From the human T2T-CHM13v2.0 reference genome, Homo sapiens: 64,000 nt of DNA. A program made the translations under genes and the position numbers. The DNA is taken from the NCBI RefSeq assembly GCF_009914755.1, contig NC_060932.1; one strand, 5' to 3'. Of this stretch, positions 11,121 to 51,200 are shown piece after piece (position 1 is the stretch's first letter; each line of letters opens with the position of its first letter). The notes under the pieces are model-generated. The model was not told the DNA's origin, did not search any database, and saw only the letters and a list, made by a program, of their open reading frames with translations.

Positions 11121-11741
11121 CTCTGTGTTCAAGGATGAGGACATGATTCCCCGTTTCTTAGGTGTGGGCTGTGCACAGCAACTTTCTTCCAAAGAATAGT
11201 AGTATGCAAAGAGAGATTTAAAAAGAGTAACTTTCCAGTGGAGAAACCTCTCAAATACTACTTCAGCCAGGTGATTAAGGCCAATATCAAGTCATAAACC
11301 ATGTTGATAATGTGTACCCTTGATATGATGTGATGAAAACGACCCACCATTGGGCTCCTCCTAAAACCTATAACTCCAGTTTTATCATAAGGAAAACATT
11401 AGAAAAATTCCAGAGGAGCACATCCCCCCAAACTAGTCAGTAGTTTAAACTTAAGATCATGAAGAATAGACTCTTAGAAACTGTCACTAGCAAAAGAGTC
11501 CTACAAAATATGATACCTAAATGAAATGTGGTGCCTGGATGGAATCCTGAAACAGAAACAGACCTTAGATAAAAACTAAAGAAATCTCCACGTTATCATT
11601 AGTTAATGATAACGTATCATTATTGGTTCATTAATTGTAACATATGTACTATAAGAATGGAAGATGGCAATTATAGGGGAAACTGGATGCTGGACATTTG
11701 AGAATTCCCTGTATGTTCTTTTAAATTAATCTTTAAATCTA

Positions 11742-13109
11742 TCATTTCTAATTTTATTTATTTGCATCTTCTCTTTTTTCCCATAATTATTCTGGCTGAA
11801 GCTTTGTCATTTTTTTTTAACTTTTCATCAAACCATTTTTTGTTCCATTTATCTTTTGTGTTGTTTTCTTTTTTCATTTCAATTTTATTTATTTCTGCTC
11901 TGATCTTTATCATTTCTTTTCTCCAAATTCTGGGTTTGGTTTGCTCTTGCTTTTCTAGTTCTTTAAGATGCATCGTTAGATTGTTTATTTGAAGTTTTTC
12001 CTTGTTTTCATGCAGGCACAGATAGCTATAAACTTTCCTCTGAGTACTGCTTTTACTGTATGTATACCATGGGTTTTGGTACGTTTTGTTTCCATTATCA
12101 TTTGTTTCAAGAAATGTTTCAGTTTCTTATTGCTGGTTATTGAGGGCCCAAGGAGTCTTCAGTTAGCAGGTGATGAATGCTGACGGGACTGAGTCCTTTC
12201 CTTCAAGGCAGCAGATCCTCTTCTGGCCCAGGGTGTGTCTAGACATGTCATCTGGGAGCTAGGGCCTGGAACAAGGGCCTCCTGACTCTGACTGGTGCCC
12301 TATGCTGCTGTGGCTGACCTGGTATCCTAGATGTAAGACACAGTCCTCCTCACTCTTCCCTCTCCTCTCCTCAAGTGGGAGTTCTCCTACTGAGATACCA
12401 TCTGGGGCAGCCAAGGGACTCTTGGCATCAACTGTCTCCTCAACCCAGGTGGCACAGCTTAGGGTTAGAGGAGGGGTGATGCCAACACCCACTTCACTGC
12501 CCCAGATGGTGTCTCAGTATTTTATGTATGTGTCCTGTCCTGACCCCAGTTCTCTGTCTCTGTGCCTATTTCAGCACTAGGACTCACCTAAAAGTTGCAG
12601 TACTTATAGCCCAGACTGCCTTTCAAATTTACTTGGAGACACAGCGTGTTGTGCCACACTGTGCCCTCAGTGGCAAGGTTTGAGGCACTCAGGTTTGAAC
12701 CACTGGGATTGGAGATCCCTTTCTGGCTATGGTTGGATTAAATATTCACTCCGTGGACAGGTGCTAGCTGAGTTTGGTCTGGTTTTCCTCTTTGCTCTAA
12801 CAGGACAACACTGAGTTCATTGCCTCACAGTTGCTGTGTTCTTCCCCCTCAGTGCCCAGAGAAGCTCTCTGCACCACGAAGCTGCTGCTGGGAGTGGGGG
12901 AGAAGTGGCATTGGCCATTTAGGATTGTTTTATTTTTATCTCTTCAGCACCTCTTTCAACTATATAAAGTTAAAGCCAGGTACTATGAATACTCACCTGA
13001 TCTTTGGTTCTTATGAAGGTGTTTTTCCCGTGTAGATAGTTGTTAACTTGGTGTCCTTCAGTGGAGAACAATTGGTGGAGCTTTCTATTCTGCCATCTTG
13101 TTCCTCTCC
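11742..13109 (-). mobile_element. Old L1 (L1MA-type 5'UTR) joined directly to an ORF2 fragment
   Basis: 5' end caagatggcagaatagaaagctcc (rc of 13078-13101); 5'UTR runs to ~12130, then ORF2 peptide HLKELEKQEQTKP..IKIRAEINKIE (11758-11973). Confidence 0.85.
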
Positions 13110-15145: not shown

Positions 15146-15639
15146 AGATAAGTAACATGGGCTATATAATCTGTATTTGTAGATATATATCTATGTATAT
15201 ATACATATACTTACACACATGCAGTCATTACTGTAATCTAACATTAACATATTTTTTGGTAAGTTTTAGTAAACTACTCCTAAGTACCTATTATATTATT
15301 TGGTTAAGCTTAACCTCAGGAAAATTTTTTTTTTAATTTAGATATTTGTACCATATACAACTGTCATCAAGAATAGGCAAATGTGTGTATGATATCTTTA
15401 AGCTATAAAGTAGCAGGACAAATTTGCAGAATCAATGTGTACTTAAATAATTAATTATGCAGATATAAGCAATAACAAATAAGTGTCGAAAAATATGCGT
15501 AAAAAGAGATAAAAAGACAAAATCTTCAGAAAAATAATTTTAAAAAGCTTTTCAATTTTAGATTTGACAGAGTGTCTTTACTCTCTTTACTGTTCTTATC
15601 TGAAGTCTTTCCAGAGACACATATATTACATATGAGTTA

Positions 15640-16380
15640 ATGTAAGATGAAGAATAATAGGTTCTCACATATCCTAATGCCTATCTCCCTTTCCTGGGTC
15701 AGCCAAGGTAAGTCCTTTCTCATCCATCATATGCTTCACACATCTAGAACACAGTTGCTTCACTGTAGTATTGGTATTTGCTCTTGTCTGGTGATCATAT
15801 ATTTCATAATTAATTGGAGGGATATTATCAGCTTAAATGAATTTTTAGAATTTCTGTTCTGTTGCACTATCCCAGGAGAATAAGAGGCATGTCATAGTGA
15901 ATAGATAACTTTGTAATTATTTCAATTTACCATAGCACAATCTTTACAGCATGTAGCAATTACTGAGCATGACCACAAAATAATGTCCTCTTTTCCCACA
16001 GTTCCTCCAGCATAAATCAGACAAGAAAGCCTAGAGTTATCATAACTTAGTGTATAAATTAAAAGAAGTCTGGTATTAAATTTCTGTAAAATTATATGGC
16101 ATAACCTAATATTTTGTATATTCAAAAAACTTTCCAAACCAAGGTCAATCTTCAGGAATTTTTACTGTTTCCTTTATAACATGTAACCTGTTTATTATAA
16201 AATTGCAAAAAACATCACACAGCTCAGCAGGATAACTTAGATTTTGCATCCCAAGAGAAAATATGCCAAAGATTTTTCACATCTATAAAAGCTGTTTTTC
16301 TAATTAAATATTCTGAATGTTTTATGAAAACTTGACAGCTGAACAAAAAGGGAAAATAAAGAAACATTGCTAAGCATGAG
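15640..16380 (-). mobile_element. Ancient non-mammalian-type L1 ORF2 C-terminus (zinc-knuckle region)
   Basis: NIRLCHII..K...RL; SDLCWRNCGKRG (16021-15986); WSCSVI (15975-15958); IEIITKLSIHYDMPLILLG (15926-15870); LIISLQLIMKYMITR..PILQ*; DM*EPIILHL (15673-15644). Confidence 0.75.
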
Positions 16381-17000: not shown

Positions 17001-17176
17001 GTTACTAGACATCCAATTTAACATTGCCCTCTTGCCTATTTCATTATGCTACATATTTCTCTCACAATAAGAAGAGAAACCAAACTCATGAACTGTTGAC
17101 TTTATTTGACAGCATTTGTTGGATACTCACTATTGCAAGATCCATACTAAATTCTGAAGATAGAAAAAAAAATGGG

Positions 17177-17920
17177 CTACATTTTCTTAATCCAATCTAT
17201 CATTGTTGGACATTTGGGTTGGTTCCAAGTCTTTGCTATTGTGAATAGTGCCACAATAAACATACGTGTGCATGTGTCCTTATAGCAACATGATTTATAA
17301 TCCTTTGGGTATATACCCAGTAATGGGATGGCTGGGTCGAATGGTATTTCTAGTTCTAGATCTCTGAGGAATCGCCACACCGACTTCCACAATGGTTGAA
17401 CTAGTTTACAGTCCCACTAACAGTGTAAAAGTGTTCCTGTTTCTCCACATCCTCTCCAGCACCTGTTGTTTCCTGACTTTTTAATGATTGCCATTCTAAC
17501 TGGTGTGAGATGGTATCTCATTGTGGTTTTGATTTGCATTTCTCTGATGGCCAGTGATGATGAGCCACAACAGTCCCCGGTGCGTGATGTTCCCCTTCCT
17601 GTGTCCCTGTGTTCTCATTGTTCAATTCCCACCTATGAGTGAGAACATGCGGTGTTTGGTTTTTTGTCCTTGCGATAGTTTGCTGAGAATGATGGTTTCC
17701 AGCTTCATCCATGTCCCTACAAAGGACAAGAACTCATCATTTTTTATGGCTGCATAGTATTCCATGGTGGGGAGGGGGGAGGGATAGCATTAGGAGATAT
17801 ACCTAATGCTAAATGATGAGTTAATGGGTGCAGCACACCAACATGGCACATGTATACATATGTAACAAACCTGCACGTTGTGCACATGTACCCTAAAACT
17901 TATAGTATAATAATAATAAT
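17177..17920 (+). mobile_element. 5'-truncated L1PA2/3-like element with two separate inversions
   Basis: rc(A) 17177-17565, rc(B) 17566-17769, sense 3' end 17770-17920; TSD aaaaaaatggg at 17166-17176 and 17921-17931. Confidence 0.92.
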
Positions 17921-18149
17921 AAAAAAATGGGAAGGATACTTCTGAAATGAAATTCAAGAAAAAATATTCTGAAATATCACACTCAAGGAAAATTTGATCT
18001 AACTTATTTATCATTACTGGCCTTTTTCAATTCGATGGGTAGAACATTAGTGTCACTCTCATTTTGCTATGTGTTCTTGAACTTTGACAAATTACATTTC
18101 AATTCCTTGTGTTTCATTCATGTGCTAGTCTGTAGCCATAAGTACAAGG

Positions 18150-22715: not shown

Positions 22716-22752
22716 AAAAGGACCGTAAATAGTAGGTTGAAACACTATAGCA

Positions 22753-23310
22753 TGGCTTATTTCTCTTAACATAAAGTTCTCCAGTGTCATCCATGTTGTT
22801 GCAAATGACAATATCTCATTCTTTTTTATAGACACTACTGTGTATAAATTAAATAAGCCAGTCACAGAAAGATGAACTTCACATGTTCTCACTTATTTGG
22901 GGGAGGTAAGAATTAAAACAATTTAACTTGTGGAGGTAGGAGTAGAATGATAGTTACCAGAGGCTCGGAAGAGTAGTGGTGTGTGTGTGTGGTCGGGGGA
23001 GGGTGAAGGGACACGGAGTAATGTGGGGATGGTTAATGGGTACAAAAATAGTGTTAGATAGAATGAATAAGATTTAGTATTTGATAGCATAACAAAGTGA
23101 CTACAGTCAAAGTAATTTATTGTACATTAAAAAATAACTAAAAAAGGATAATTGGATCATTTATAACACAAAGAAATGATAAACATTTAAGGTGACAGAT
23201 ACCCCATTTACTCTGATGTGATTATTGTTCATTCTATTCCTTATACAAATATCCATGTCTCATAAATATGTATACCTACTATGTACCCACAAAAATTAAA
23301 AACTAAAAAA
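22753..23310 (+). mobile_element. L1MA2-4-type 3' end with short 5' inversion
   Basis: Inverted 22753-~22845 (rc KKNEILSFATTWMTLE), then sense 3'UTR ending 'ctactatgtacccacaaaaattaaaaa'. Confidence 0.85.
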
Positions 23311-25439: not shown

Positions 25440-25502
25440 AGATCATCGATGCTATGAAGAAGCTGCATCAATTAATGGGCAAAATAAATAGCAAACATCA
25501 TA

Positions 25503-28500
25503 ATGACAGGATCAAATTCACACATAACAATATGAACCTTAAATATAAATGGGCTAAATGCCCTAATTAAAAGACACAGACTGGCAAATTGGATAAAGAG
25601 TCAAGACCCATCAATGTGCTGTATTCAGGAGACCCATCTCACATGCAAAGCTGAACATAGGCTCAAAATAAAGGGATGGAAGAAGATCTACCAAGCAAAT
25701 GGAAAGCAAAAAAAAAAAAAAAAAAAAGCAGGGGTTGTAATCCTAGTCCCTGATAAAACAGACTTTAAACCAACAAAGATCAAAAGAGACAAAGAAGGCC
25801 ATTACGTGATGGTAAAGAGATCAATTCAACAAGAAAAGCTAACTATCCTAAATATATATGCACCCAATACAGGAGCACCCGGATTCATAAAGCAAGTCCT
25901 GAGAGACCTAAAATGAGACTTAGAATCCCACAGAATAACAATGGGAGATTTTAACACCCCACTGTCAATATTAGACAGATCAATGAGACAGAATGTTAAC
26001 AAGCATATCCAGGACCTGAACTCAGCTCTGCAACAAGCAGACCTAATAGACATCTACAGAACTCTTCACCCCAAATCAACAGAATATACATTCTTCTCAG
26101 TGCTACATCACACTTATTCTAAAATTGACCATTTAATTGGAAGTAAAGCACTCCTTAGCAAATGTAAAAGAACAGAAATCACAACAAACTGTCTCTCAGA
26201 CCACAGTGCAATCAAATTAGAGCTCAGGATTAAGAAACTCACTTAAAACCACATAACTACATGGAAACAGAACAACTTGCTCCTGAATGACTACTGGGTA
26301 AATAAAAAAATGAAGGCAGAGATAAAGATGTTCTTTGAAACCAATGAGACCAAAGATACAACATACCAGAATCTTTGGGACACATTTAAAGCAGTGTGTA
26401 GGAGGAAATTTATAGCACTAAATGCCCTCAAGAGAAAGCAGGAAAGATCTAAAACTGACAAAAACATATCTATGCAAACAAAGTAGAAAATCTAGAAGAA
26501 ATGGATAAATTCCTCGACACATATACCCTCCCAAGACTAAACCAGGAAGAAGTTGAATCCCTGAATAGACCAATAACAGGCTCTGAAACTGAGGCAATAA
26601 TTAATAGCCTACCAACCAAAAAAAGTCCAGGACCAGATAGATTCATAGCCGAATTCTACCGGAGGTACAAAAGCAGCTGGTACCATTCCTTTTGAAACTA
26701 TTCCAATCAACAGAAAAAGAGGGAATCCTCCCTAACTCATTTTATTGGGCCAGAGTCATCCTGATACCAAAGCCTGGCAGAGACACACAAAAAAAGAGAA
26801 TTTTAGACCAATATCCCTGATGAACATTGATGCAAAAATCTTCAGTAAAATACTGGCAAGCCAAATCCAGCATCACATCAAAAAGCTTATCCACCACTAT
26901 CAAGTTGGCTTCATTCCTGGAATGCAAGGCTTGTTCAACATACGCACATCAATAAACGTAATAGATCACATAAACAGAACCAATGACAAAAACCACATGA
27001 TTATCTCAATAGATGCAGGACAGCTTTCGACAAAATTCAACAGCCCTTCATGCTAAAAACTCTCAATAGGTAGTGATGGAATATATTATCTCAAAATAAT
27101 AAGATATATTTATTACAAACCCACAGCCAAATCATACTGAATGGGCAAAAACTGGAAGCATTCCTTTTGAAAACTGGGACAAGACAAGGATGCCATCTCT
27201 CACCACTCCTATTCAACACAGTGTTGGAAGTTCTGGCCAGGGCAATCAGGCAAGAGAAAGAAATAAAGTGTATTCAATTAGGAAAAGAGGAAATCAAATT
27301 GTCCCTGTTTGCAGATGACATGATTGTATATTTAGAAAATGCCATCATCTCAGCCCAAAATCTCTTTAAGCTGATAAGCAACTTCAGGAAAGTCTCAGGA
27401 TATAAAATCAATGTACAAAAATCACAAGCATTGCTACACACTATTAACAGAAAAACAGAGAGCCAAATCACGAGTGAACTCCCATTCACAATTGCTACAA
27501 AGAGGATAAAATACCTAGGAATCCAACTTACAAGGGATGAGAAGGACCCCTTCAAGGAGCACTACCAAGCACCACTCAACAAAATAAAAGACAAAAACAA
27601 GTGGAAGAATATTCCATGCTCATGGATAGGAAGAATCAATATCGTGAAAATGGCCATACTGCCCAAGGTAATTTATAGATTCAATGCCATCCCCATCAAG
27701 CTACCAATGACTTTCTTCACATAATTGGAAAAAACTGCTTTAAAGTTCATATGGAACCAAAAAAGAGCCCCTATAGCCAACATGATCCTAAGCAAAAAGA
27801 ATACAGTTGGAGGCATCATACTACCTGACTTCAAACTATACTATAAGGCTATAGTAACCAAAACAGCATGGTACTGGTACCAAAACAGAGATATAGACCA
27901 ATGGAACAGAACAGAACCCACAGAAATAACACCACACATCTACAACCATCTGATCTTTGACAAACCTGACAAAAACAAGAGATGGGGAAAGGATTCCCTA
28001 TTTAATAAATGGTGCTGGGAAACCTGGCTAGCCATAAGTAGAAAGCTGAAACTGGATCCCTTCCTTACACCTTAAACAAAAGTTAATTCAAGATGGATTA
28101 AAGACTTAAATGTTAGACCTAAAACCATAAAATCCCTAGAAGAAAACCTAGGCAGTACCATTCAGGACATAGGTATGTGAATGGACTTCATGACTAAAAC
28201 ACAAAAAGCAATGGCAACAAAAGCCACAATAGACAAATCTGATCTAATTAAACTAAAGAGCTTCTGCATAGCAAAAGAAACTACCATCAGAGTGAACAGG
28301 CAACCTACAGAATGGGAGAAAATTTTTGCAATCTACCCATCTGTCAAAGGGCTAATATCCAGGATCTACAAAGAACTCAGACACATTTACAAGAAAAGAA
28401 CAAATAACCCCATCAAAAAGTGCGCAAAGCATATGAACAGACACTTCTCAAAAGAAGACATCTATGCAGCCAACAGACACATGAAAAAATGCTCTTCATC

Positions 28501-29028
28501 ACTGGTCTTCAGAGAAATGCAAATCAAAACCACTATGAGATACCATCTGACACCAGTTAGAATGGCAATCATTAAAAAGTCAGGAAACAACAGAGGCTAG
28601 AGAGGATGTGGAGAAATAGGAACGCTTTTACACTGTTGGGAGTGTAAATTAGTTCAACTATTGTGGAACACTGTGGCTATTCCTCAAGGATCTAGAACTA
28701 GAATTACTACTTGACCCAGCCATCCCATTACTGGGTATATACCCAAAGGATTATAAATCATGCTACTATAAAGACACTGCAAACATATGTTTATTGCACC
28801 ACTATTCACAATAGCAAAGAGTTGGAACCAACCCAAATGTCCAACAATGATAGACTGGATTAAGAAAATGTGGCACATATACACCATAGAATACTATGCA
28901 GCCATAAAAAGGATGAGTTCATGTCCTTTGCAGAGACACGGATGAAGCTGGAAACCATCATTCTCAGCAAACTATCTCAAGGACAGAAAACCAAACACCA
29001 TATGTCCTCACTCATAGGTGGGAATTGA
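25503..29028 (+). pseudogene. L1 ORF2 (EN/RT) remnant
   Basis: ORF-track peptides [49 protein letters not shown] in shifting frames. Confidence 0.92.
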
Positions 29029-29305
29029 ACAATGAGAACACTTGACACAGGGTGAGGAACATCACACACCAGGGCCTGTCAGGAGGTGGGGGTCTAGGGG
29101 AGGGATAACATTAGGAGAAATACCTCATGTAAATGATGAGTTGATGGGTGCAGCAAACCAACATGACACATGTGTACCTATGTAGCAAACCTGCACGTTG
29201 TGCACATGTACCCTAGAACTTAAAGTATAATAATAAAAAATAAAATCTCTAAATTACCTGCCAAGTGCTTTTGTGTTTAGTCATTCATTAAACAAATATT
29301 AACTA

Positions 29306-31882: not shown

Positions 31883-33335
31883 TGTGTCCGGAATTGGTGG
31901 GTTCTTCGTCTCACTGACTTCAAGAGTGAAGCCACGGACGCTTGCAGTGAGTGTTACAATTCTTAAAGATGGTGTTTCCAGAGTTTGTTCCTTCTGATGT
32001 TTGGACGTGTTTGGAGTTTCTTCTTTCTGGTGGGTTCATGGTCTCACTGGCCTCAGGAGTGAAGCTACAGACCTTTGCGGTGAGTGTTACATCTCATAAA
32101 GGCAGTGCAGACCCAAAAAGTGAGCAGCAGCAAGATTTATTGCAAAGAGCAAAAGAACAAAGCTTCCACAATGTGGAAGGGTACCTGAGCAGGTTGCCTC
32201 TGCTGCCTCCGGCAGCCTGCTTTTATTCCCTTATCTGACCCCACCCACACCCTGCTGATTGGCCCATTTTACAGAGAGCTGGTTGGTCCATTTTACAGAG
32301 AGCTGATTGGTTCGTTTTGACAAGGTGCTGATTGGTGCATTTACAAACCTTGAGATAGACATGGAGTGCTGATTGGTGTATTTAGAATCCTCTAGCTAGA
32401 CGTAAAAGTTCTCCAAGTCCCCACTAGATTAGCTAGACACAGAGCACTGATTGGCACATTTACAAACCTTGAGCTAGACACAGGGTGCTGATTGGTGTGT
32501 TTACAAACCTTGAGCTAGACACAGAGTGCTGATTGGTGCATTTACAAACCTTGAGTTAGACACGGGGTGCTGATTGGTGCATGTACGATCCTTTAGCTAG
32601 ACATAAAAGTTCTCCAAGTCCCCACCAGATTAGCTAGATACAGAGTGCTGATTGGTGCATCCACGAACCCCAATCTAGACACAGAGTGCTGATTGGTGCA
32701 TATACAATCCTCTGGCTAGACATAAAAGTTCTCCAAGTCCCTACCCAACTCAGGAGCCTAGTTGGCTTTGCCTAGTGGATCCTGCACCAGGGCTGTGGGC
32801 AGAGCTGCGTGCTGGTCCCGCTCTGTGGGCCTGCACTCCTCAGCCCTTGGGTGGTTGATGGGCAGACTGGGCACCTCAGAGCAGGGGGTGGCACCTGTTG
32901 GGGAGGCTCAGGCTGCACGGGAGCCCACCGCCAGGGGGCTCAGGCATGGTGGGCTGCAGGTCCCGAGCCCTGTCCTGTGGGGAGACAGCTGAGGCCCGGT
33001 GAGAATTTGAGCATGGCGCAGGCAGGCCGGCAGTGCTGGGGGACCCGGCACCCCCTACATGGCTGCTGGCCTGGGTGCTAAGCCCCTCACTGCCCAGGGC
33101 TGGTGGCAAACTCGCACTGGCCCACAAATGCCATGCGCAGCCCCGGTTCCCACCTGCGCCTCTCCCTTCACACCCTGCAAGCAGTGGGAGCCAGCTCCAA
33201 CCTTGGCCAACCCAGAGAGGGGCTCCCACAGTGCAGGAGTGTGCTGAAGGGCTCCTCAAGCGTGGCCAGAGTGGACGCCGAGACTCAGGAGGTGCTGAGA
33301 GCGAGCAAGGGCTGCTAGCATGTTGTCACCTCTCA
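31883..33335 (-). mobile_element. LTR12 (ERV9) solo LTR
   Basis: rc termini TGAGAGGTGACAAC...AATTCCGGACACA; 4-bp TSD aagg at 31879-31882 and 33336-33339; GC-rich U3 and tandem CCAAT repeats. Confidence 0.97.
32218..32700 (-). promoter_or_regulatory. LTR12 promoter/enhancer: ~10 CCAAT (NF-Y) boxes, GATA site, AATAAA TATA-like box; fires leftward
   Basis: Repeated ctgattgg 32255-32696; cttatctg ~32230; ttttattccc 32221. Confidence 0.8.
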
Positions 33336-34029
33336 AAGGGATACCAACTTTACCTGCTAAAGAGTAGACAGAGTTAAAGTAGTAAATTCAGAAGAAACTG
33401 CACAAGTAAAGAAGAAGTAAACTTAGAAGAAACTTAAAACATAAGAAAAGGAAGAAATAGACTTGAGGTGAGAAAGACAAAAGAAATAGAAATTCTTCCG
33501 AATTTAGATGTGGATTATATTCTTTTCCCAGGATAGTAAAGATATTTCAAGATATCAGGAAATGTGGTTAGGCTGAATTAAAGATCTTGGTCCAGCTGCA
33601 CTGGGCATGCTCCACTCTGCTGGCCCTGGTAAAAGGATATGGTCTTCTAATAATTGATATATAATGATGAAAATCACATGAAATTAAATAAACATGTTTT
33701 CTGAATATTTCAAAATAAACTTAGGTTTACATGTTTTAGAGAAGAAAACAGAAAATGTCTGCATCCTGTTGACTTGCTTCTTATAGCACTGACTCTCATT
33801 AGCATGATGTAATATATCTTGTAGTAATTAAAGCCAGTTATTATTAGTCTAATTCATGGCTGCTTGAAATGGAATTCCAGAAATCCGGAAGCACAAATGA
33901 GAAAAACAGAAATCTTTGTTCCTCGGCTCTAGGTAGAAGAGTCAGAGCCATCCATGAGTCAGCTGCTTGATTTTCTCTTTGTGCCACTATCATCTCCTTG
34001 CATTTAGGGCCACTTAGAGGTGAGGAAAA

Positions 34030-34600: not shown

Positions 34601-35877
34601 AATCTTTAAAAAAATAGTTTTCATTCGGCTCATGTTAAGAAATATGTATTTAAGCTACACTTACCATTTATTATGAGTCAATCACCAACTAGGATGTGAA
34701 AAATATTCTCCCATAAAATAAAATGACTATTCCATTCTCTTTGGGAAAAGGTAATTTAATTTAAAAAACTATATATACATATTTTGTTTGAAGGATCTTT
34801 GTTGTCAAGTGAAAATAAAACATTTGTCTTCAGTCCAACATAAGAAATTAACAGAAAATCTTTAACATTTTCAATAATATGGTGCATGTCTGTTTCCTGA
34901 AAAAATCTTTTGATGAAAGATGAGATTTGCATGTATGAAATTTCATATCTCTTATGAAGTGACTGTAAATTATATTCTTAAAATTCTTAGTGGGAAAACA
35001 AACACACACATTTTTTAAAGTTATTTTCAGTATATATTCCCTACTAGCAACAAGTATATATACTTTTTATTGATTTCATTTATTGTCTATGGGAGTATGA
35101 GATGGAGAATTTAGGTGCTTTAACACTTCTTAATGTAAATATTTAGCCTTTTAAGGCCAAGTATACAACTGGTTTTAAACATCACTACCTTCTTTCTCTC
35201 ACATTTTAGCTCAAAACAAGTTCCAATTTCTCTCAGCTATAATTCCAAAATCATTCTATTCTGTCTGGCTTAAGATCACCTTACCCATTACTTCCAATTT
35301 ACTTCCAAATTTATTGAAATATGTAATATATATTCACTCTTTCATTTCTCATCTTTCAGTTGCTTCAGTATCAAGGTAGTCCCTGACTCTCCATTGAAAC
35401 ATCTTTTACTGTCTGGCAAAATGTTCTGTCTGCTGAATCCCATGGCCCTTTCCTGTGTATACTCTTCTGTATCTTCAAATATCAAGCATCGATTCATTCT
35501 GGATCAACTCTTCTTTTGCCTCATGGCAACATTATCTCTGTCTTACAGTTCCTCATTCTGTCTACAACATTTAATATCCTTTACGGGTTTATTTTTGTTT
35601 GTTCATGTCAAGTAATCTAGTTCTTTTTCCAAACATTTTATTTGAAACCAGATCATACCCTAGCCTCATGTTCTATTGGTACATCTCTGAGTGTTATATG
35701 AGGTTTCCACGACAGTGCTAAAAGCCCCACAATACTTCTTCCTGCTGGTTTGAAACAGAACCTGAGGCTTCTTGGCTCAAGAGAAGCAAATAGATTAAAA
35801 TTGAGACAGGAGAAAAAAGGGCTACATTCTACTAACAATGTTTCTGTTTCCAGAATCTCCTTGCTTTACCCAGGTAA

Positions 35878-36598
<721 letters not shown>

Positions 36599-38980: not shown

Positions 38981-39202
38981 GGGTTTTGCTCCTTTTTTAT
39001 TACACTTTAAGTTCTAGGGTACATGTGCACAACGTGCAGGTTTGTTATATATGTATACATGTGCCATGTTGGTGTGCTGCGCTCGTTAACTCGTCATTTA
39101 CAATAGGTATATCTCCCAATGCTATCCCTCCCCGCTCCCCCCACCCTATGACAGGCCCTGGTGTGTGATGTTCCCTACCCTGTGTCCAAGTGTTCTCAAT
39201 GT

Positions 39203-43022
<3,820 letters not shown>

Positions 43023-45214: not shown

Positions 45215-48200
45215 TCCTTAACTTTTATTTTAAGTTCAGGGATACAACTGTATGTTTGTTATAGAGGTAAACTCATGTCACAGTGGCTTGTTGCACCAAT
45301 TATTTCATCACCCAGGTACTGAGCCTAGTACCCAGTAGTTAGTTTTTACTCCTCCTCTCTCTCCTCCTCCCCTCAAGTAGGCCCCATTGTCTCTTCCCTT
45401 CTTTATGCTCATGAGTTCTGATCATTTAGCTACCACTTATAAGTAATAACATGTAGCATTTGATTTTCTGTTTCTGCATTAGTTTGCTAAGGAAAATGGC
45501 CTCCAGCTCCATCCATGTTCCCACAAAAGACATTACTTCTTATGACTGCATAGTATTTCATGGTGTATATGTACCATATTTTCTTTACCCAATATGTCAT
45601 TGATGGGTATTTAGGTTTATTCCATGTGTTTGTGCAGCAACGAACATTCAGATGCATGTGTCTTTATGATAGAATGATTTATACTCCTCTTGATGTATAC
45701 CCAGTAATAGGATTGCAGGTTCAAATGGTATTTCTATTTTTAGCTCTTTGAGGAATCACCATACAGAATTCCACAATGGTTGAACTAATTTACACTTCCA
45801 CCAACAGTGTATAAGTGTTCCCTTTTCTCCACAACCTTACTAGTGGTTGTTATTTTTTGACTTTTTCATGATAGCTAGTCTGACTGGTGGGAGATGGTAT
45901 CTCATTGTGGTTTTGATTTGCATTTCTTTAATGATTAGTGACATTGAGTTTTTTTTCATAAGCTTGTTGGCTGCATGTGTGTCTTCTTTTGAAAGGTGCC
46001 TCTTCATATCCTTTGCCCACTTTTTAATGGGGTTGTTAGTTTTTCTCTTGTAAATTTGTTTATGTTTTTTATTCATACTGAATATTAGACTTTTGTCAGA
46101 TGCATAGTTTGCAAATATTTTCTCCCGTTCTGTAGATAGCTGATAGTTTTTTTTTCTGCACAGAAGTTCTTTAGTTTAATTAGATCCCATTAGTCAATTT
46201 TTGCTTTTGTTGCAATTATTTTGGTGTCTTTGTCATGAAATCTTTGCTCATTCCAATGCCCAGGATTGTATTACCTGTGTTGTCTTCCAGAATTTTCATA
46301 GATTTGGGTTTTACATTTAAGTCTTTAATCCATCTCAAGTTGAATTTTGTGTTTAGAGAAAGGAAGGGGTCCTATTTCAATCTTCTGCATATGGCTAGCC
46401 AGTTATTCCAGCATCATTTATTGAATAGAGAAGTTTTTTCCCTGCTGCTAGTTTTCGTCAGTTTTGTCTAAGATCAAATGGTCATAGGCGTATGGCCTTA
46501 TTTCTGCACTCCCTATTCTGTTCCATTGGTCTATGTGCCTGTTTTTGTACCAGTACAACACTGTTTTGGTTCCTGTAGCCCTGTAGTATAGTTTGAAATT
46601 GGATAACGTGATGCCTCTAGCTTTGTTCTTTTTGCTTAGAATTGTCTTGGCTCTTTTTTGGTTCCATATGAATTTTAAAGTAGTTTTTATCTAGTTCTGC
46701 AAAGAATGCCATTGGTAATTTGATAGGAATAACATTGAATCTATAAATTGCTTTGGGCAATATGGCCATTTTAATAACATTGTTTCTTCCTATCCACGAC
46801 CATGGGACCTTTTACATTTGTTCGTGTCATTTCTGATTTAACAATGTTTTGTAATTCTCATCGTAGAGACCTTTCACTACCTGGCTAATTGTATTCCTAG
46901 GTATTTTATTCTTTTTGTGGCAATTGTAAATGGTATTGTGTTCCCGATTTGGCTATAGGATTGACTTTTGTTGGTGTATAGAAATGCTAGTGGTTTGTGC
47001 ATTTATTTTTGTATCCTGAAACTTTACTGAAGTTGTTTATCAGGTAGAGGAGCATTTGGGCTGAGACTATGGGGTTTTCTACATACAGAATCATGTCATC
47101 TGCAAAGAGGGATAGGTAGACTTCCTCTCTTCCAATTTCAGTGACGTTTATTTATTTCCCTCATCTGATTGCTCTGGCCAGGACTTCCAATACTATGTTA
47201 AATATGAGTAGAGAGAGAGGACACCCTTGTCTTGTGCCAGTTTTGAAGGGGAGTGCTTCCAGCTTTTGCCCACTCAGTATGATGTTGGCTGTAGGTTTTT
47301 TATAGATGGCTCTTATTGTTTTGAGGTATGTTTCTTCAATACCTAGTTTATTGAGAGTTTTTCACATGAAGGGATTTTGACTTTTATCAAACCTTTTCTG
47401 CATTTATTGTGATAATCATGTGATTTTTTCTTTAGTTCTGTTTATGTGATTAATCACATTTATTGATTTGTGTATGCTGAACCAACCTTGCATCCCTGGT
47501 ATGAAGCCTACTTTATCATGATAGATTAACTTTTTGATGTGCTGCTTGATTCAGTTTGCAAGTATTTTGTTGAGGATGTTTGCATCAATGTTTATTAAGG
47601 ATATTGGCCTGAAGTTTTCTCTTTATTTGGTTTTGTTGCTGTAAGGTTTTGGTATCAGAATGATGCTGGCCTCATAGAATTAGTTGGAGAGGAGTCCCTA
47701 CTCCTCAATTTTTGGAATAGTTTCAGTAGAAATTGTACCAACTCTTCTTTGTTCATCTGGTAGAATCTGGCTGTGAATCCATCTGGTTCAGGGCATTTGT
47801 TGGTTGGTAAGCTATTTATTACTGATTCAGTTTTGGAGCTCATTATTGGTCTGTTTAGGAAATCAGTTTCTTCCTGGTTCAGTCTTGGGAAGGTGTAAGT
47901 GTCCAATAATTTATTAATCTCTTCTAGATTTTGTAGTTTGTGTGCAGAGAGGTGTAGGTGGTGGTTTCTGATGATTATTTTTATTTATGTGAGTTCAGTG
48001 GTAGCATCCCCTTTGTTATTTGTAATTGTGTTAATTTGGATATTTTCTCTCTTTTTTTCTTTATTAGTCTAGGTAGCAGTCTATCTTATTCATTTGTTCA
48101 AAAAATTAATTCCTGGATTTGTTAATATTTAGAATGGTTTTTGATTTCTTAATTTCTTCCATTTCAGCTTTGATTTTTGTTGTTTTGTTATTTATTGTCT

Positions 48201-51200
48201 TCTGCTAGCTTTGGGTTTGATTCATTCTTGCTTCTCTAATTATTTTGGTGTGATATTATGTTATTAATTTGAGATCTTTCTATCTTTGTGATGTAGGCAT
48301 TTAATGCTATAAATTTCCCTCTTAACACTACCTTAGCTATATCCCCCAAATTATGGTATGTTGTTCTCTTTTCTTCCAAAGAACTTTTTGATTTCTGCCT
48401 TAATTTCATTATTTACCCAAAAGTCTTTCAGGAACATGTTATTTTATTTCCATGTAATTGCATTGTTTTCAGCAATTTTTTTGTCTTGACTTCTATTTTT
48501 ATTGTGCTGTGGTCCGAGAGTGCATTTGGTATGATTTCAATTCTTCTACATTTTCTGAGGATTGTTTTATGTCCAATTATGTGATCAATTTTAGAGTATG
48601 TGCCATGTGTTGATGAGAAGAATGTATATTCTGTTGTTTTGGGATGGAGAGTTCTGTAGCGCTTTCTCAGATCCATTTGGTCCAATGTTAAGTTCAGGTC
48701 TTGAATATCTTTGTTAATTTTCTGCCTCAGTGATTTGTCTAATACTGCCAGTGGAGCGTTGTTTCTCACTATTACTGTGTGGGAGTCTGAGTTTCTTTGT
48801 CTGTCTCTAATAACTTGCTTTATGAATCTGGATGTTCCTTTGTTGGGTTCATATATATTTAGGATAGTTAGGTCACCTTGTTGAATTGAACCCCTTACCA
48901 TTATGAAATGCCCTTCTTTGTCATTTTTTATCTTTGTTGGTTTAAAGTCTGTTTTGTCTGAAATTAGGATTGCAACCCCTGTTGTTATTTTTTTCTTATT
49001 TCCATATGCTTGGTAGATTTTCCTCCATCTTTTTAATTTTGAGCCTATTGGTGTCACTGCACATGAGATCAGTCCCTTGAAGACACCATCCCATTGGGTC
49101 TCACTTTTTTCTCCAGCTTTCCACTTTGTGTCTTTTAAGTGGCACATTTAGCTCATTTACATTGAAGATAAGTATTGATATTTGTAAATTTGATCCTGTT
49201 ATTGTGTTGTTAGCTAGTTATTATGCTGGATTATTTGTGTGGTTGCTTTATAGAGTCACTGGTCTGTGTGTTTTTAAGTGTGTTTTTGTGTTAGCTGGTA
49301 GTAGTCTTTCCTTTCTATGTGTAGTGCTCCTTTTAAGATCTCTTGGAAGGCATGTCTGCTGGTAACAAACTCCCTCAACATTTGCTTATCTGAAAAGGGT
49401 CTTATTTCTCTTTCACTTAGGCAGTTTAGTTTGGCTGGATATGAAATTTTTGGTTCTTCTTTAAAAATTTTTTCTTTAAGAATGTTGAAAATATACCTCC
49501 AGTCTTTTCTGGCTGATTGTGTTTCAGCTGAGAGGTCTGCTGTTAGCCTGATGGGGTTCCCTTTTTAGGTGACCTGCCTTTTCTCTCTAGCTGCCTTTAA
49601 CACTTTAACATTCTTTTTTTTTCATTTTGACTTTAGTAAATCTGATGATTATTTGTCTTAGGGATTATATTCTTGTGTAGAATCTTGCAGGGGTTCTCTG
49701 TATTTCCTGAATTTGACTGTTGGCTTCCATAGCAAGGTTGGGGAAGTTTTCATGATATCCTGAAATATGTTTTCCAAGTTGTTTGTTTTCTCCCCATTCA
49801 TTTTAGGGATGCCAATGATTCATAGATTTGGCCTTCTTATATAATCACTTATTTCTCAGAGGTTTCCTTCAATCTTTGTCTTTCTTTTTACTTTACTTTT
49901 GCATGACTATCTTATTTCAGAGAGCCAGTCTTCAAATTCTGAGATTCTTTCCTCAGCTTGGTCTATTCTGCTGTTAATGATTCTGATTGTATTGTGAAAT
50001 TCTTGTGTGTTTTTCAGCTCTGTCAGATCCATTAGGTTCCTTTTTATACCAGCTCTTTCATCATTCAGCTCCTGTATCATTTTATTGTAACTCTTAGTTT
50101 CCTCATATTGGTTTTCACTGTTCTCCTGAATCTCAAATATCTTCATTCCTATCCATATTCTGAATTCTATTTCTGTCATTTCAGCCAGCTCAGCCTGGTT
50201 AAGAACCTCTGTTGGAAAACTAATGTGGTTATTTGGAGGACCTACAACACTCTGGCCATTTGAGTTACTGGAGTTGTTACATTGGTTATTTCTCATATCT
50301 ATGTGTGGGTGTTTTTTTTAATTGGTGTGCAGATTGAGTACCATCAATAGACATCTCTTCTAGATGTTCCCACAGAGCTGAGAATTTGTGCAGGGTCTTT
50401 ATTTGTAGCTGACTTCCTGCTGTTGGTTTCACAGGGTGATATGTTAATGAGGTGTTTTTAGTGTTGAAGCTTTAGGGTGTAATCCACTAAGTGGCACTTA
50501 TATGTATTGATCAGTTCGTAGGCTCCTGCTTGGTCATTTGGGTCACCTATATTTCCTCACATTTGCAGCCCTGCTCCCTCTGAATGCTCTGCAAATCTGG
50601 GCTTCTGTCCAACTTAAGTGCAGGCTGTAGATCATGGCTTGGCACTCATGGGCTTCCCACTGTAGCTCTAGGGCAATCTCAGAGTAGGGCTGTTCTGTTA
50701 TGCTGGGAGTCCACACCAGTCCCTAGTCACCTCAAATTTTCCAATACCTGAAGGTATCAACAGTGAAGATTTCAAAACTGCAAAGACTGTGATCCCTCCC
50801 TCCCTCTGGGAGCTCTATCCCAGGGAGGTACAGTTCTGTTGCTAGCCTAAATGCATCTGTAGGAGGCAGCTGGACACCCTGGTTGGGATGTCCCTCTTGG
50901 TGGGGATGAATGAAATCAGGGACCCACTTAAAAAAGAAGTCTGGGCACATTTTTGTAGAGAAGTGCTGTGCTGGGGTTCTCCTTCAGCCCCCAGTCAAGT
51001 TGGACTCTCCAAAGCCTAAAGGCCAGAATGGCTAAGTCAGTCAAACAGCAAAGATGGCAGCCTGTCCCTCCCTCTGGGAACTCAGTCCCAGGCAAATTTG
51101 AAACCCTTCTCAGCCAAAAAATACTAGTGTGGGTGACTGGAGACCCCAGTCAGAATCCATGTGAATAAGCAGTCTGAACACCTAGAGAGAGCTGCTGGAC

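What the first reader, a model, noticed from the sequence alone, without database searches (positions are those of the whole stretch)
15640..16380. Clearest diagnostic: non-mammalian L1 zinc knuckle and C-terminus
SDLCWRNCGKRG..WSCSVI..IEIITKLSIHYDMPLILLG..LIISL...K..I..P.LQ*..DM*EPIILHL fits the fish/amphibian/lizard pattern (SxLCWRxCGxxG..WxCxxI..FW..IxxI..LLG..KIWEP). It differs from the mammalian [19 protein letters not shown] form, whose L1PA copy lies 1 kb away (17177-17565).
Basis: partly seen in the sequence, partly recalled or inferred. Interest (0 to 1): 0.7.

Follow-up and report, generated by a model that had tools for sequence, protein, structure and literature searches.

The report
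Fossil of a non-mammalian LINE-1
A 360-base stretch of human chromosome 8 is a broken remnant of the end of a LINE-1 jumping gene that resembles frog- and fish-type copies more than mammalian ones, so it is likely a dead leftover from before the mammalian LINE-1 line took over, a kind of fossil already reported in the human genome.

Summary
A frameshift-aware profile alignment joins them colinearly over 16021-15659 to the last ~123 residues of L1 ORF2p: 36.5 bits against a frog-containing non-mammalian profile, 24.5 against mammals, shuffles 14.4±1.8 (max 23.3 of 150). Corrections: the knuckle alone is not diagnostic (20.7 vs 20.9 bits; CX3C spacing is the mammalian type), the signal comes from knuckle plus tail; lizard L1s score poorly; 16022-16380 carries no signal. 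It is most likely a dead, 5'-truncated insertion of a non-therian L1 lineage. Age, conservation and RepeatMasker/Dfam status (X9_LINE?) could not be tested. Such fossils are known (Frith 2022: 137 pre-amniote L1 fossils), so this is a new member of a known kind.

The parts
15659..16021 (-). Degraded C-terminal ~123 codons of L1 ORF2p (cysteine-rich knuckle to terminal W-x-P), with about 4 frameshifts and 4 in-path stops
   Evidence: Frameshift-aware profile alignment, 36.5 bits vs shuffles 14.4±1.8
15967..16012 (-). CCHC zinc-knuckle remnant: CWRNC (CX3C), then a short deletion/frameshift around the His, then ILWSC
   Evidence: Translation; path codons; zf-CCHC E 0.25 only
15659..15667 (-). 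TGA-GAA-CCT, read as a decayed W-x-P, 100.7 codons after the last Cys
   Evidence: W-x-P at 99-102 residues after the last Cys in 8 of 30 group A and 9 of 20 group B proteins, 0 of 38 mammalian
15626..15628 (-). TAA in the W-x-P frame, 13 codons after the W position; candidate original ORF2 stop
   Evidence: non-mammalian proteins with W-x-P end 8-28 residues after it. Inferred
15335..15625 (-). Candidate 3' UTR, about 290 nt, T-rich on the element strand
   Evidence: T 0.40 over 15340-15636 vs 0.30 in the coding remnant, but upstream flank is also 0.38-0.41 T: weak
15325..15334 (-). A10 run on the element strand; candidate poly(A) tail remnant
   Evidence: runs of 9 or more occur 5-6 times per strand in 29.4 kb of flank, so about 7% chance in a 400-nt zone: weak

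Best explanation
The stretch 16021-15659 (minus strand) is a broken remnant of the 3' end of LINE-1 ORF2 that scores closer to frog- and fish-type L1 than to mammalian L1, and it is likely a dead, 5'-truncated insertion of an L1 lineage older than or parallel to the therian L1 line. Shown: colinear homology, multiple stops and frameshifts, no further ORF2 piece nearby, preference for non-mammalian profiles. Inferred: it was pasted in by target-primed reverse transcription that stopped just 5' of the knuckle (established L1 mechanism), carried a ~290-nt 3' UTR and poly(A), and has since decayed; it makes no protein. Its age (probably over 150 My) is inferred from lineage type and decay, not from orthologues. 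Whether it was kept by selection is untested.
For: Alignment and shuffle test; in reversed 104 kb the A-profile peaks were 31.5 and 25.6 (mirroring the TC-rich repeat near 35.8 kb, my reading) and then 20.7 or less. Non-mammal minus mammal = +11.9 bits here, negative (-10.6 to -154.6) at 13 of 13 other L1 3' ends in 104 kb, including old weak ones, and at 30 of 30 human L1 loci picked by a ray-derived query. 0 of 320 simulated decayed mammalian ends reach +11.9 (max +2.0), while held-out non-mammalian proteins decayed at 0.25 subst/site give A 30-37, mammal 17-28 for 6 of 8 (fossil 35.4 vs 23.8). Direction holds in 12 of 12 parameter sets. WSC, Pro after the last Cys (fossil TCA, one change from CCA) and terminal W-x-P occur in non-mammalian groups and in 0 of 38 mammalian proteins. 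Best single protein P0280 30.6 bits vs best mammal 22.0. Group A holds Xenopus tropicalis and Leptobrachium proteins.
Against: The aligner is my own and its statistics are rough; extrapolated genome-wide E is about 0.7 for one profile. With stiff gap costs the gap shrinks to 3.6-9.9 bits. The post-knuckle part alone scores only 22.3 (A), 22.5 (B), 23.5 (deep, presumably invertebrate group) vs 17.4 (mammal), so the clade cannot be pinned. The mammalian set is extant eutherian, redundant (many rabbit) and, as far as names show, lacks marsupial and L1ME/L1M5-8 proteins. One held-out protein sister to mammals (P0121) gives near-equal scores, and P0129 stays low on both. No TSD, no sibling copy in the genome by DNA or protein search, no close living relative found.
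Confidence: 0.76

Rival explanations
1. It is an extremely decayed copy of the ordinary mammalian L1 line (oldest L1M/L1ME or its immediate stem), and the non-mammalian look comes from decay and a broad profile.
For: Knuckle is CX3C/CWR, as in 38 of 38 mammalian proteins, and scores equally; horse ORF2 aligns over 16021-15763 at 22.0 bits; mammal profile itself is above shuffles (24.5, P 6e-4 per kb); oldest L1M proteins were not in my set.
Against: 0 of 320 decayed mammalian simulations and 0 of 13 natural neighbours behave so; W-x-P end and WSC never seen in 38 mammalian proteins.
Confidence: 0.12
2. It belongs to a Tx1-like or other deep L1-group clade (such as the human MARE6 family, filed as Tx1 in Repbase) and not to vertebrate L1 proper.
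For: The tail alone scores 23.5 on the deep, unnamed group vs 19.1 on group A; Tx1 fossils exist in human (PMC5753468; PMC9004415).
Against: Whole-piece score 25.7 vs 36.5; 0 of 25 deep-group proteins have CWR or CX3C, 1 of 25 has W-x-P. My labelling of that group as invertebrate/Tx1-like is inferred from the tree.
Confidence: 0.06
3. The match is chance in AT-rich DNA stitched together by frameshifts.
For: tblastn and Pfam see nothing significant; about four frameshifts are needed; single copy in the genome searches.
Against: 36.5 bits vs max 23.3 of 150 shuffles; alignment ends on the true C-terminal motif at the right distance, followed by a stop.
Confidence: 0.06

Closest known systems
Ancient L1 protein fossils of Frith 2022 (PMC9004415): 137 pre-amniote and 5 pre-tetrapod L1 fossils in human, 115 of the 137 missed by RepeatMasker
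   Same: Short, frameshifted L1 ORF2 remnant in a gene-poor region, found only by frameshift-aware protein comparison; the five pre-tetrapod ones were aligned to coelacanth or zebrafish L1 proteins.
   Different: Frith's fossils are dated by alignment to non-mammal genomes; that is untested here. This locus is not among the table rows I read (chr8 rows lie at 71.1, 76.9 and 105.7 Mb of hg38); the 137 are not listed in the paper, so it may be one of them.
Amphibian and fish L1 ORF2p with CX3C knuckle (Xenopus tropicalis P0123, Leptobrachium P0128; unnamed P0280 clade, related to a Mobula protein P0290)
   Same: Knuckle, WSC/W-x-C then Pro, LLG, terminal W-x-P at about 100 residues.
   Different: No close relative: best single-protein score 30.6 bits; group C lacks W-x-P, group A includes CX2C members; the fossil cannot be placed in one clade.
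Mammalian L1 (L1PA/L1M) ORF2p C-terminus
   Same: CX3C/CWR knuckle; same overall spacing; homologous along the length.
   Different: After the knuckle mammals have K/R (36 of 38), no WSC and no W-x-P; profile score 12 bits lower.
X9_LINE (L1 clade) and MARE6 (Tx1 clade), Repbase human families (PMC5753468, table 3)
   Same: Human families listed under the L1 and Tx1 clades apart from the L1P/L1M series.

Membership tests
L1 clade non-LTR retrotransposon (fossil) | ORF2 C-terminal cysteine-rich motif CX2-3CX7-8HX4C | tested here: met
   Three Cys and the His are present, with 8 nt missing between Cys2 and the last Cys
L1 clade non-LTR retrotransposon (fossil) | Colinear homology to ORF2p from knuckle to stop | tested here: met
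   363 nt to 123 columns, 36.5 bits
L1 clade non-LTR retrotransposon (fossil) | RT and endonuclease domains (used to assign the clade) | tested here: not met
   No further ORF2 piece above background in 12.5-23 kb apart from mammalian L1s; expected for a 5'-truncated copy, but the clade rests on the C-terminus alone
L1 clade non-LTR retrotransposon (fossil) | 3' poly(A) tail | tested here: inconclusive
   A10 at 15325-15334; about 7% by chance
L1 clade non-LTR retrotransposon (fossil) | Target-site duplication | tested here: not met
   Best candidate matched or beaten in 35 of 88 control windows; loss expected at this age
Therian L1 (L1P/L1M) | Mammal-type post-knuckle tail scoring best on a mammalian profile | tested here: not met
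   24.8 vs 36.7 bits; 13 of 13 neighbours and 314 of 320 simulations prefer mammal, the other 6 by at most 2 bits. L1ME-age and marsupial proteins not in the set
Majority non-mammalian L1 (CX2CX8HX4C) incl. lizard L1 | CX2C spacing | tested here: not met
   Fossil is CX3C (consensus from PMC5381506); lizard proteins score 14-20 bits
Pre-amniote exapted L1 fossils (Frith 2022) | Orthologous, syntenic alignment to reptile, amphibian or fish genomes; phastCons conservation | not testable with these tools
   No vertebrate relatives held
X9_LINE / MARE6 | DNA match to the Repbase/Dfam consensus | not testable with these tools
   No repeat library; only the names were seen in print

The most novel reading that the evidence does not exclude
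The locus is the 3' end (ORF2 tail, UTR, A-tail) of an unnamed frog/fish-type L1 lineage that was still jumping in the synapsid or early mammal line, absent from RepeatMasker/Dfam and from Frith's list; its orthologue in marsupials or monotremes would be direct evidence that L1 was inherited vertically into mammals, against the proposed horizontal entry into therians 160-191 My ago.
Probability: 0.2. Interest if true: 0.55.

Novelty: new member of a known kind. Interest (0 to 1): 0.3.

Why it matters
Mammals are described as having a single L1 lineage (PMC5381506, abstract), and one study proposes L1 entered therians horizontally because monotremes lack it (PMC6036668, passages). Non-therian L1 fossils in human DNA argue for older, more diverse L1s in our ancestors. 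Frith 2022 already made that point with over a hundred fossils, so one more undated locus adds little unless it proves to be a new family, datable, or conserved as a regulatory element.

Tried and rejected
tblastn with 120 and then 270 L1 proteins: only short HSPs. Pfam on nine stop-free frames: nothing above cut-off. First run of my aligner used a trinucleotide background that inflated CpG-containing and reversed sequence; discarded. Second version with a global background gave false peaks in GC-rich DNA; replaced by a local background (on). TSD candidate near 16151-16164: chance. Extension 5' of 16021: none. Sibling copies: DNA and protein searches of the genome returned only the locus itself or weak hits (L008 is noise and the L009 locus holds a mammalian L1); the tool warns that no match does not show rarity. 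A ray-derived query returned 140 matches, of which the 30 fetched are all mammalian L1. Rfam on 13-19 kb: 0 hits. The protein atlas gave no answer. 'Not masked in NCBI's file' was rejected as evidence of novelty: the clear L1 at about 46.1-49.2 kb is also missing from the listed longest masks. Literature: no paper for RALYL/SNX16 desert terms (gene names recalled as the flanking genes); Frith supplement has no chr8 text hit, its figures and GitHub lists were not visible; Boissinot supplement part 1 of 7 read, its FASTA not used.

Full report
Observation. The region is AT-rich with no annotated gene. Pfam sees only a sub-threshold zf-CCHC match and tblastn with 270 L1 proteins only short HSPs, best E 0.067, because frames change every 15-45 codons.

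Reference set. I fetched 120 mammalian-type ORF2 proteins with a window L1 RT frame, 150 cluster representatives with a horse ORF2 and 20 more from two searches. A tree of 86 proteins (FastTree, output partly cut) gave groups: mammals (38 with full tails used), A (30; holds Xenopus tropicalis and Leptobrachium proteins), B (20 unnamed, other vertebrate-type by position), a deep group (25, presumably invertebrate/Tx1-like; inferred) and C (11 in the profile; related to a Mobula protein). Most representatives carry no species name.

Homology. I wrote a frameshift-aware profile-to-DNA aligner with a neutral-decay codon model. The locus aligns from 16021 to 15659, 363 nt against 123 columns, from the knuckle to the terminal W-x-P. 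With a local background it scores A 36.5, B 28.3, deep 25.7, mammal 24.5; 150 dinucleotide shuffles give 14.4±1.8, max 23.3 for A; Gumbel P about 1e-7 per kb; C scores 30.3. That is about 1e-5 for the window and near 0.7 for the whole genome, by extrapolation. The path has about four frameshifts and four stops. One stop, TGA at 15667, sits where W is expected, 100.7 codons after the last Cys; W-x-P lies at 99-102 in 8 of 30 A and 9 of 20 B proteins and in 0 of 38 mammals; a TAA follows 13 codons later. An A10 run lies about 290 nt after the stop (weak; about 7% by chance). No TSD is distinguishable from chance (35 of 88 controls).

Lineage. The knuckle does not separate the groups: 20.7 vs 20.9 bits; mammalian proteins include SDKCWRGCGEKG, and CX3CX7HX4C is the mammalian consensus, shared with a few non-mammalian families (PMC5381506, passages). 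The whole piece does: A minus mammal is +11.9 here and negative at 13 of 13 other L1 3' ends in 104 kb and at 30 of 30 fetched human L1 loci (of 140 matches) found with a ray-derived query. Of 320 decayed copies of four mammalian ends from the window, 6 scored higher on A, by at most 2.0 bits, none by 11.9; of eight held-out non-mammalian proteins decayed at 0.25, six gave A 30-37 and mammal 17-28 like the fossil, P0129 was lower on both and P0121, sister to mammals, was near even. The direction held in 12 of 12 parameter sets, margin 3.6-20 bits. Against over-reading: the post-knuckle part alone is weak (A 22.3, B 22.5, deep 23.5, mammal 17.4), lizard proteins score 14-20, the best single protein is an unnamed one at 30.6, and no L1ME-age or marsupial tail was identified in the set.

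How it works. By established L1 biology (my knowledge), target-primed reverse transcription starts at the poly(A) and often stops early, leaving the 3' end only. This fits a remnant of ORF2 tail, possible UTR and A-run with no upstream ORF2. It is now non-coding. Insertion before the therian L1 expansion is inferred from lineage type and decay. Exaptation is possible, as for Frith's fossils, but untested. No sibling copy was found, with low power.

What is known. Frith 2022 (PMC9004415; parts 1-5 of 8 of the text read; supplement searched) reports 137 pre-amniote and 5 pre-tetrapod L1 fossils in human, mostly missed by RepeatMasker, and argues for vertical inheritance. Kojima 2018 (PMC5753468, passages) lists X9_LINE under L1 and MARE6 under Tx1. 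Ivancevic 2018 (PMC6036668, passages) proposes horizontal entry into therians. Kitao 2025 (PMC12129022, abstract and outline) shows a Paleozoic L1 ORF1 co-option in sauropsids. The tuatara paper (PMC7116210, passages) added nothing decisive. Seven literature searches ran; none names this locus, but locus lists on GitHub and in Dfam were not visible.

Verdict. A real, hard-to-see L1 fossil, probably of a non-therian lineage (0.76). New member of a known kind; interest 0.3, rising to about 0.55 if it proves unlisted and datable in marsupials or monotremes.

Noticed in passing
window 17167-17933: The neighbouring L1PA is a plus-strand, 5'-inverted insertion with TSD AAAAAAATGGG (17167-17177, 17923-17933). 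Its inverted part is in two blocks in swapped order (17172-17565 and 17565-17769), more complex than simple twin priming; the last 160 nt are in sense.
   Followed up: partly
window 25500-29030 (+), 39200-43020 (-), 45430-49200 (-), 11716-12162 (-), 22749-22901 (-): Three near-complete mammalian L1 ORF2 remnants of different ages, two head to tail on the minus strand, plus two short older pieces. The 46.1-49.2 kb one is not in the hub's list of longest masks.
   Followed up: partly
window 32876-33377: GC-rich stretch with open frames on both strands; looks like an LTR12-type solo LTR (label recalled, not tested).
   Followed up: no
window 35800-36490: Long TC-rich simple repeat next to an Alu-like sequence; the main source of false peaks in my profile scans.
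   Followed up: no
protein P0121 (and P0122): Unnamed L1 ORF2p that branches as sister to all mammalian L1 with support 1.0, 41% identical to horse ORF2; a possible outgroup for the origin of mammalian L1. Host unknown.
   Followed up: partly
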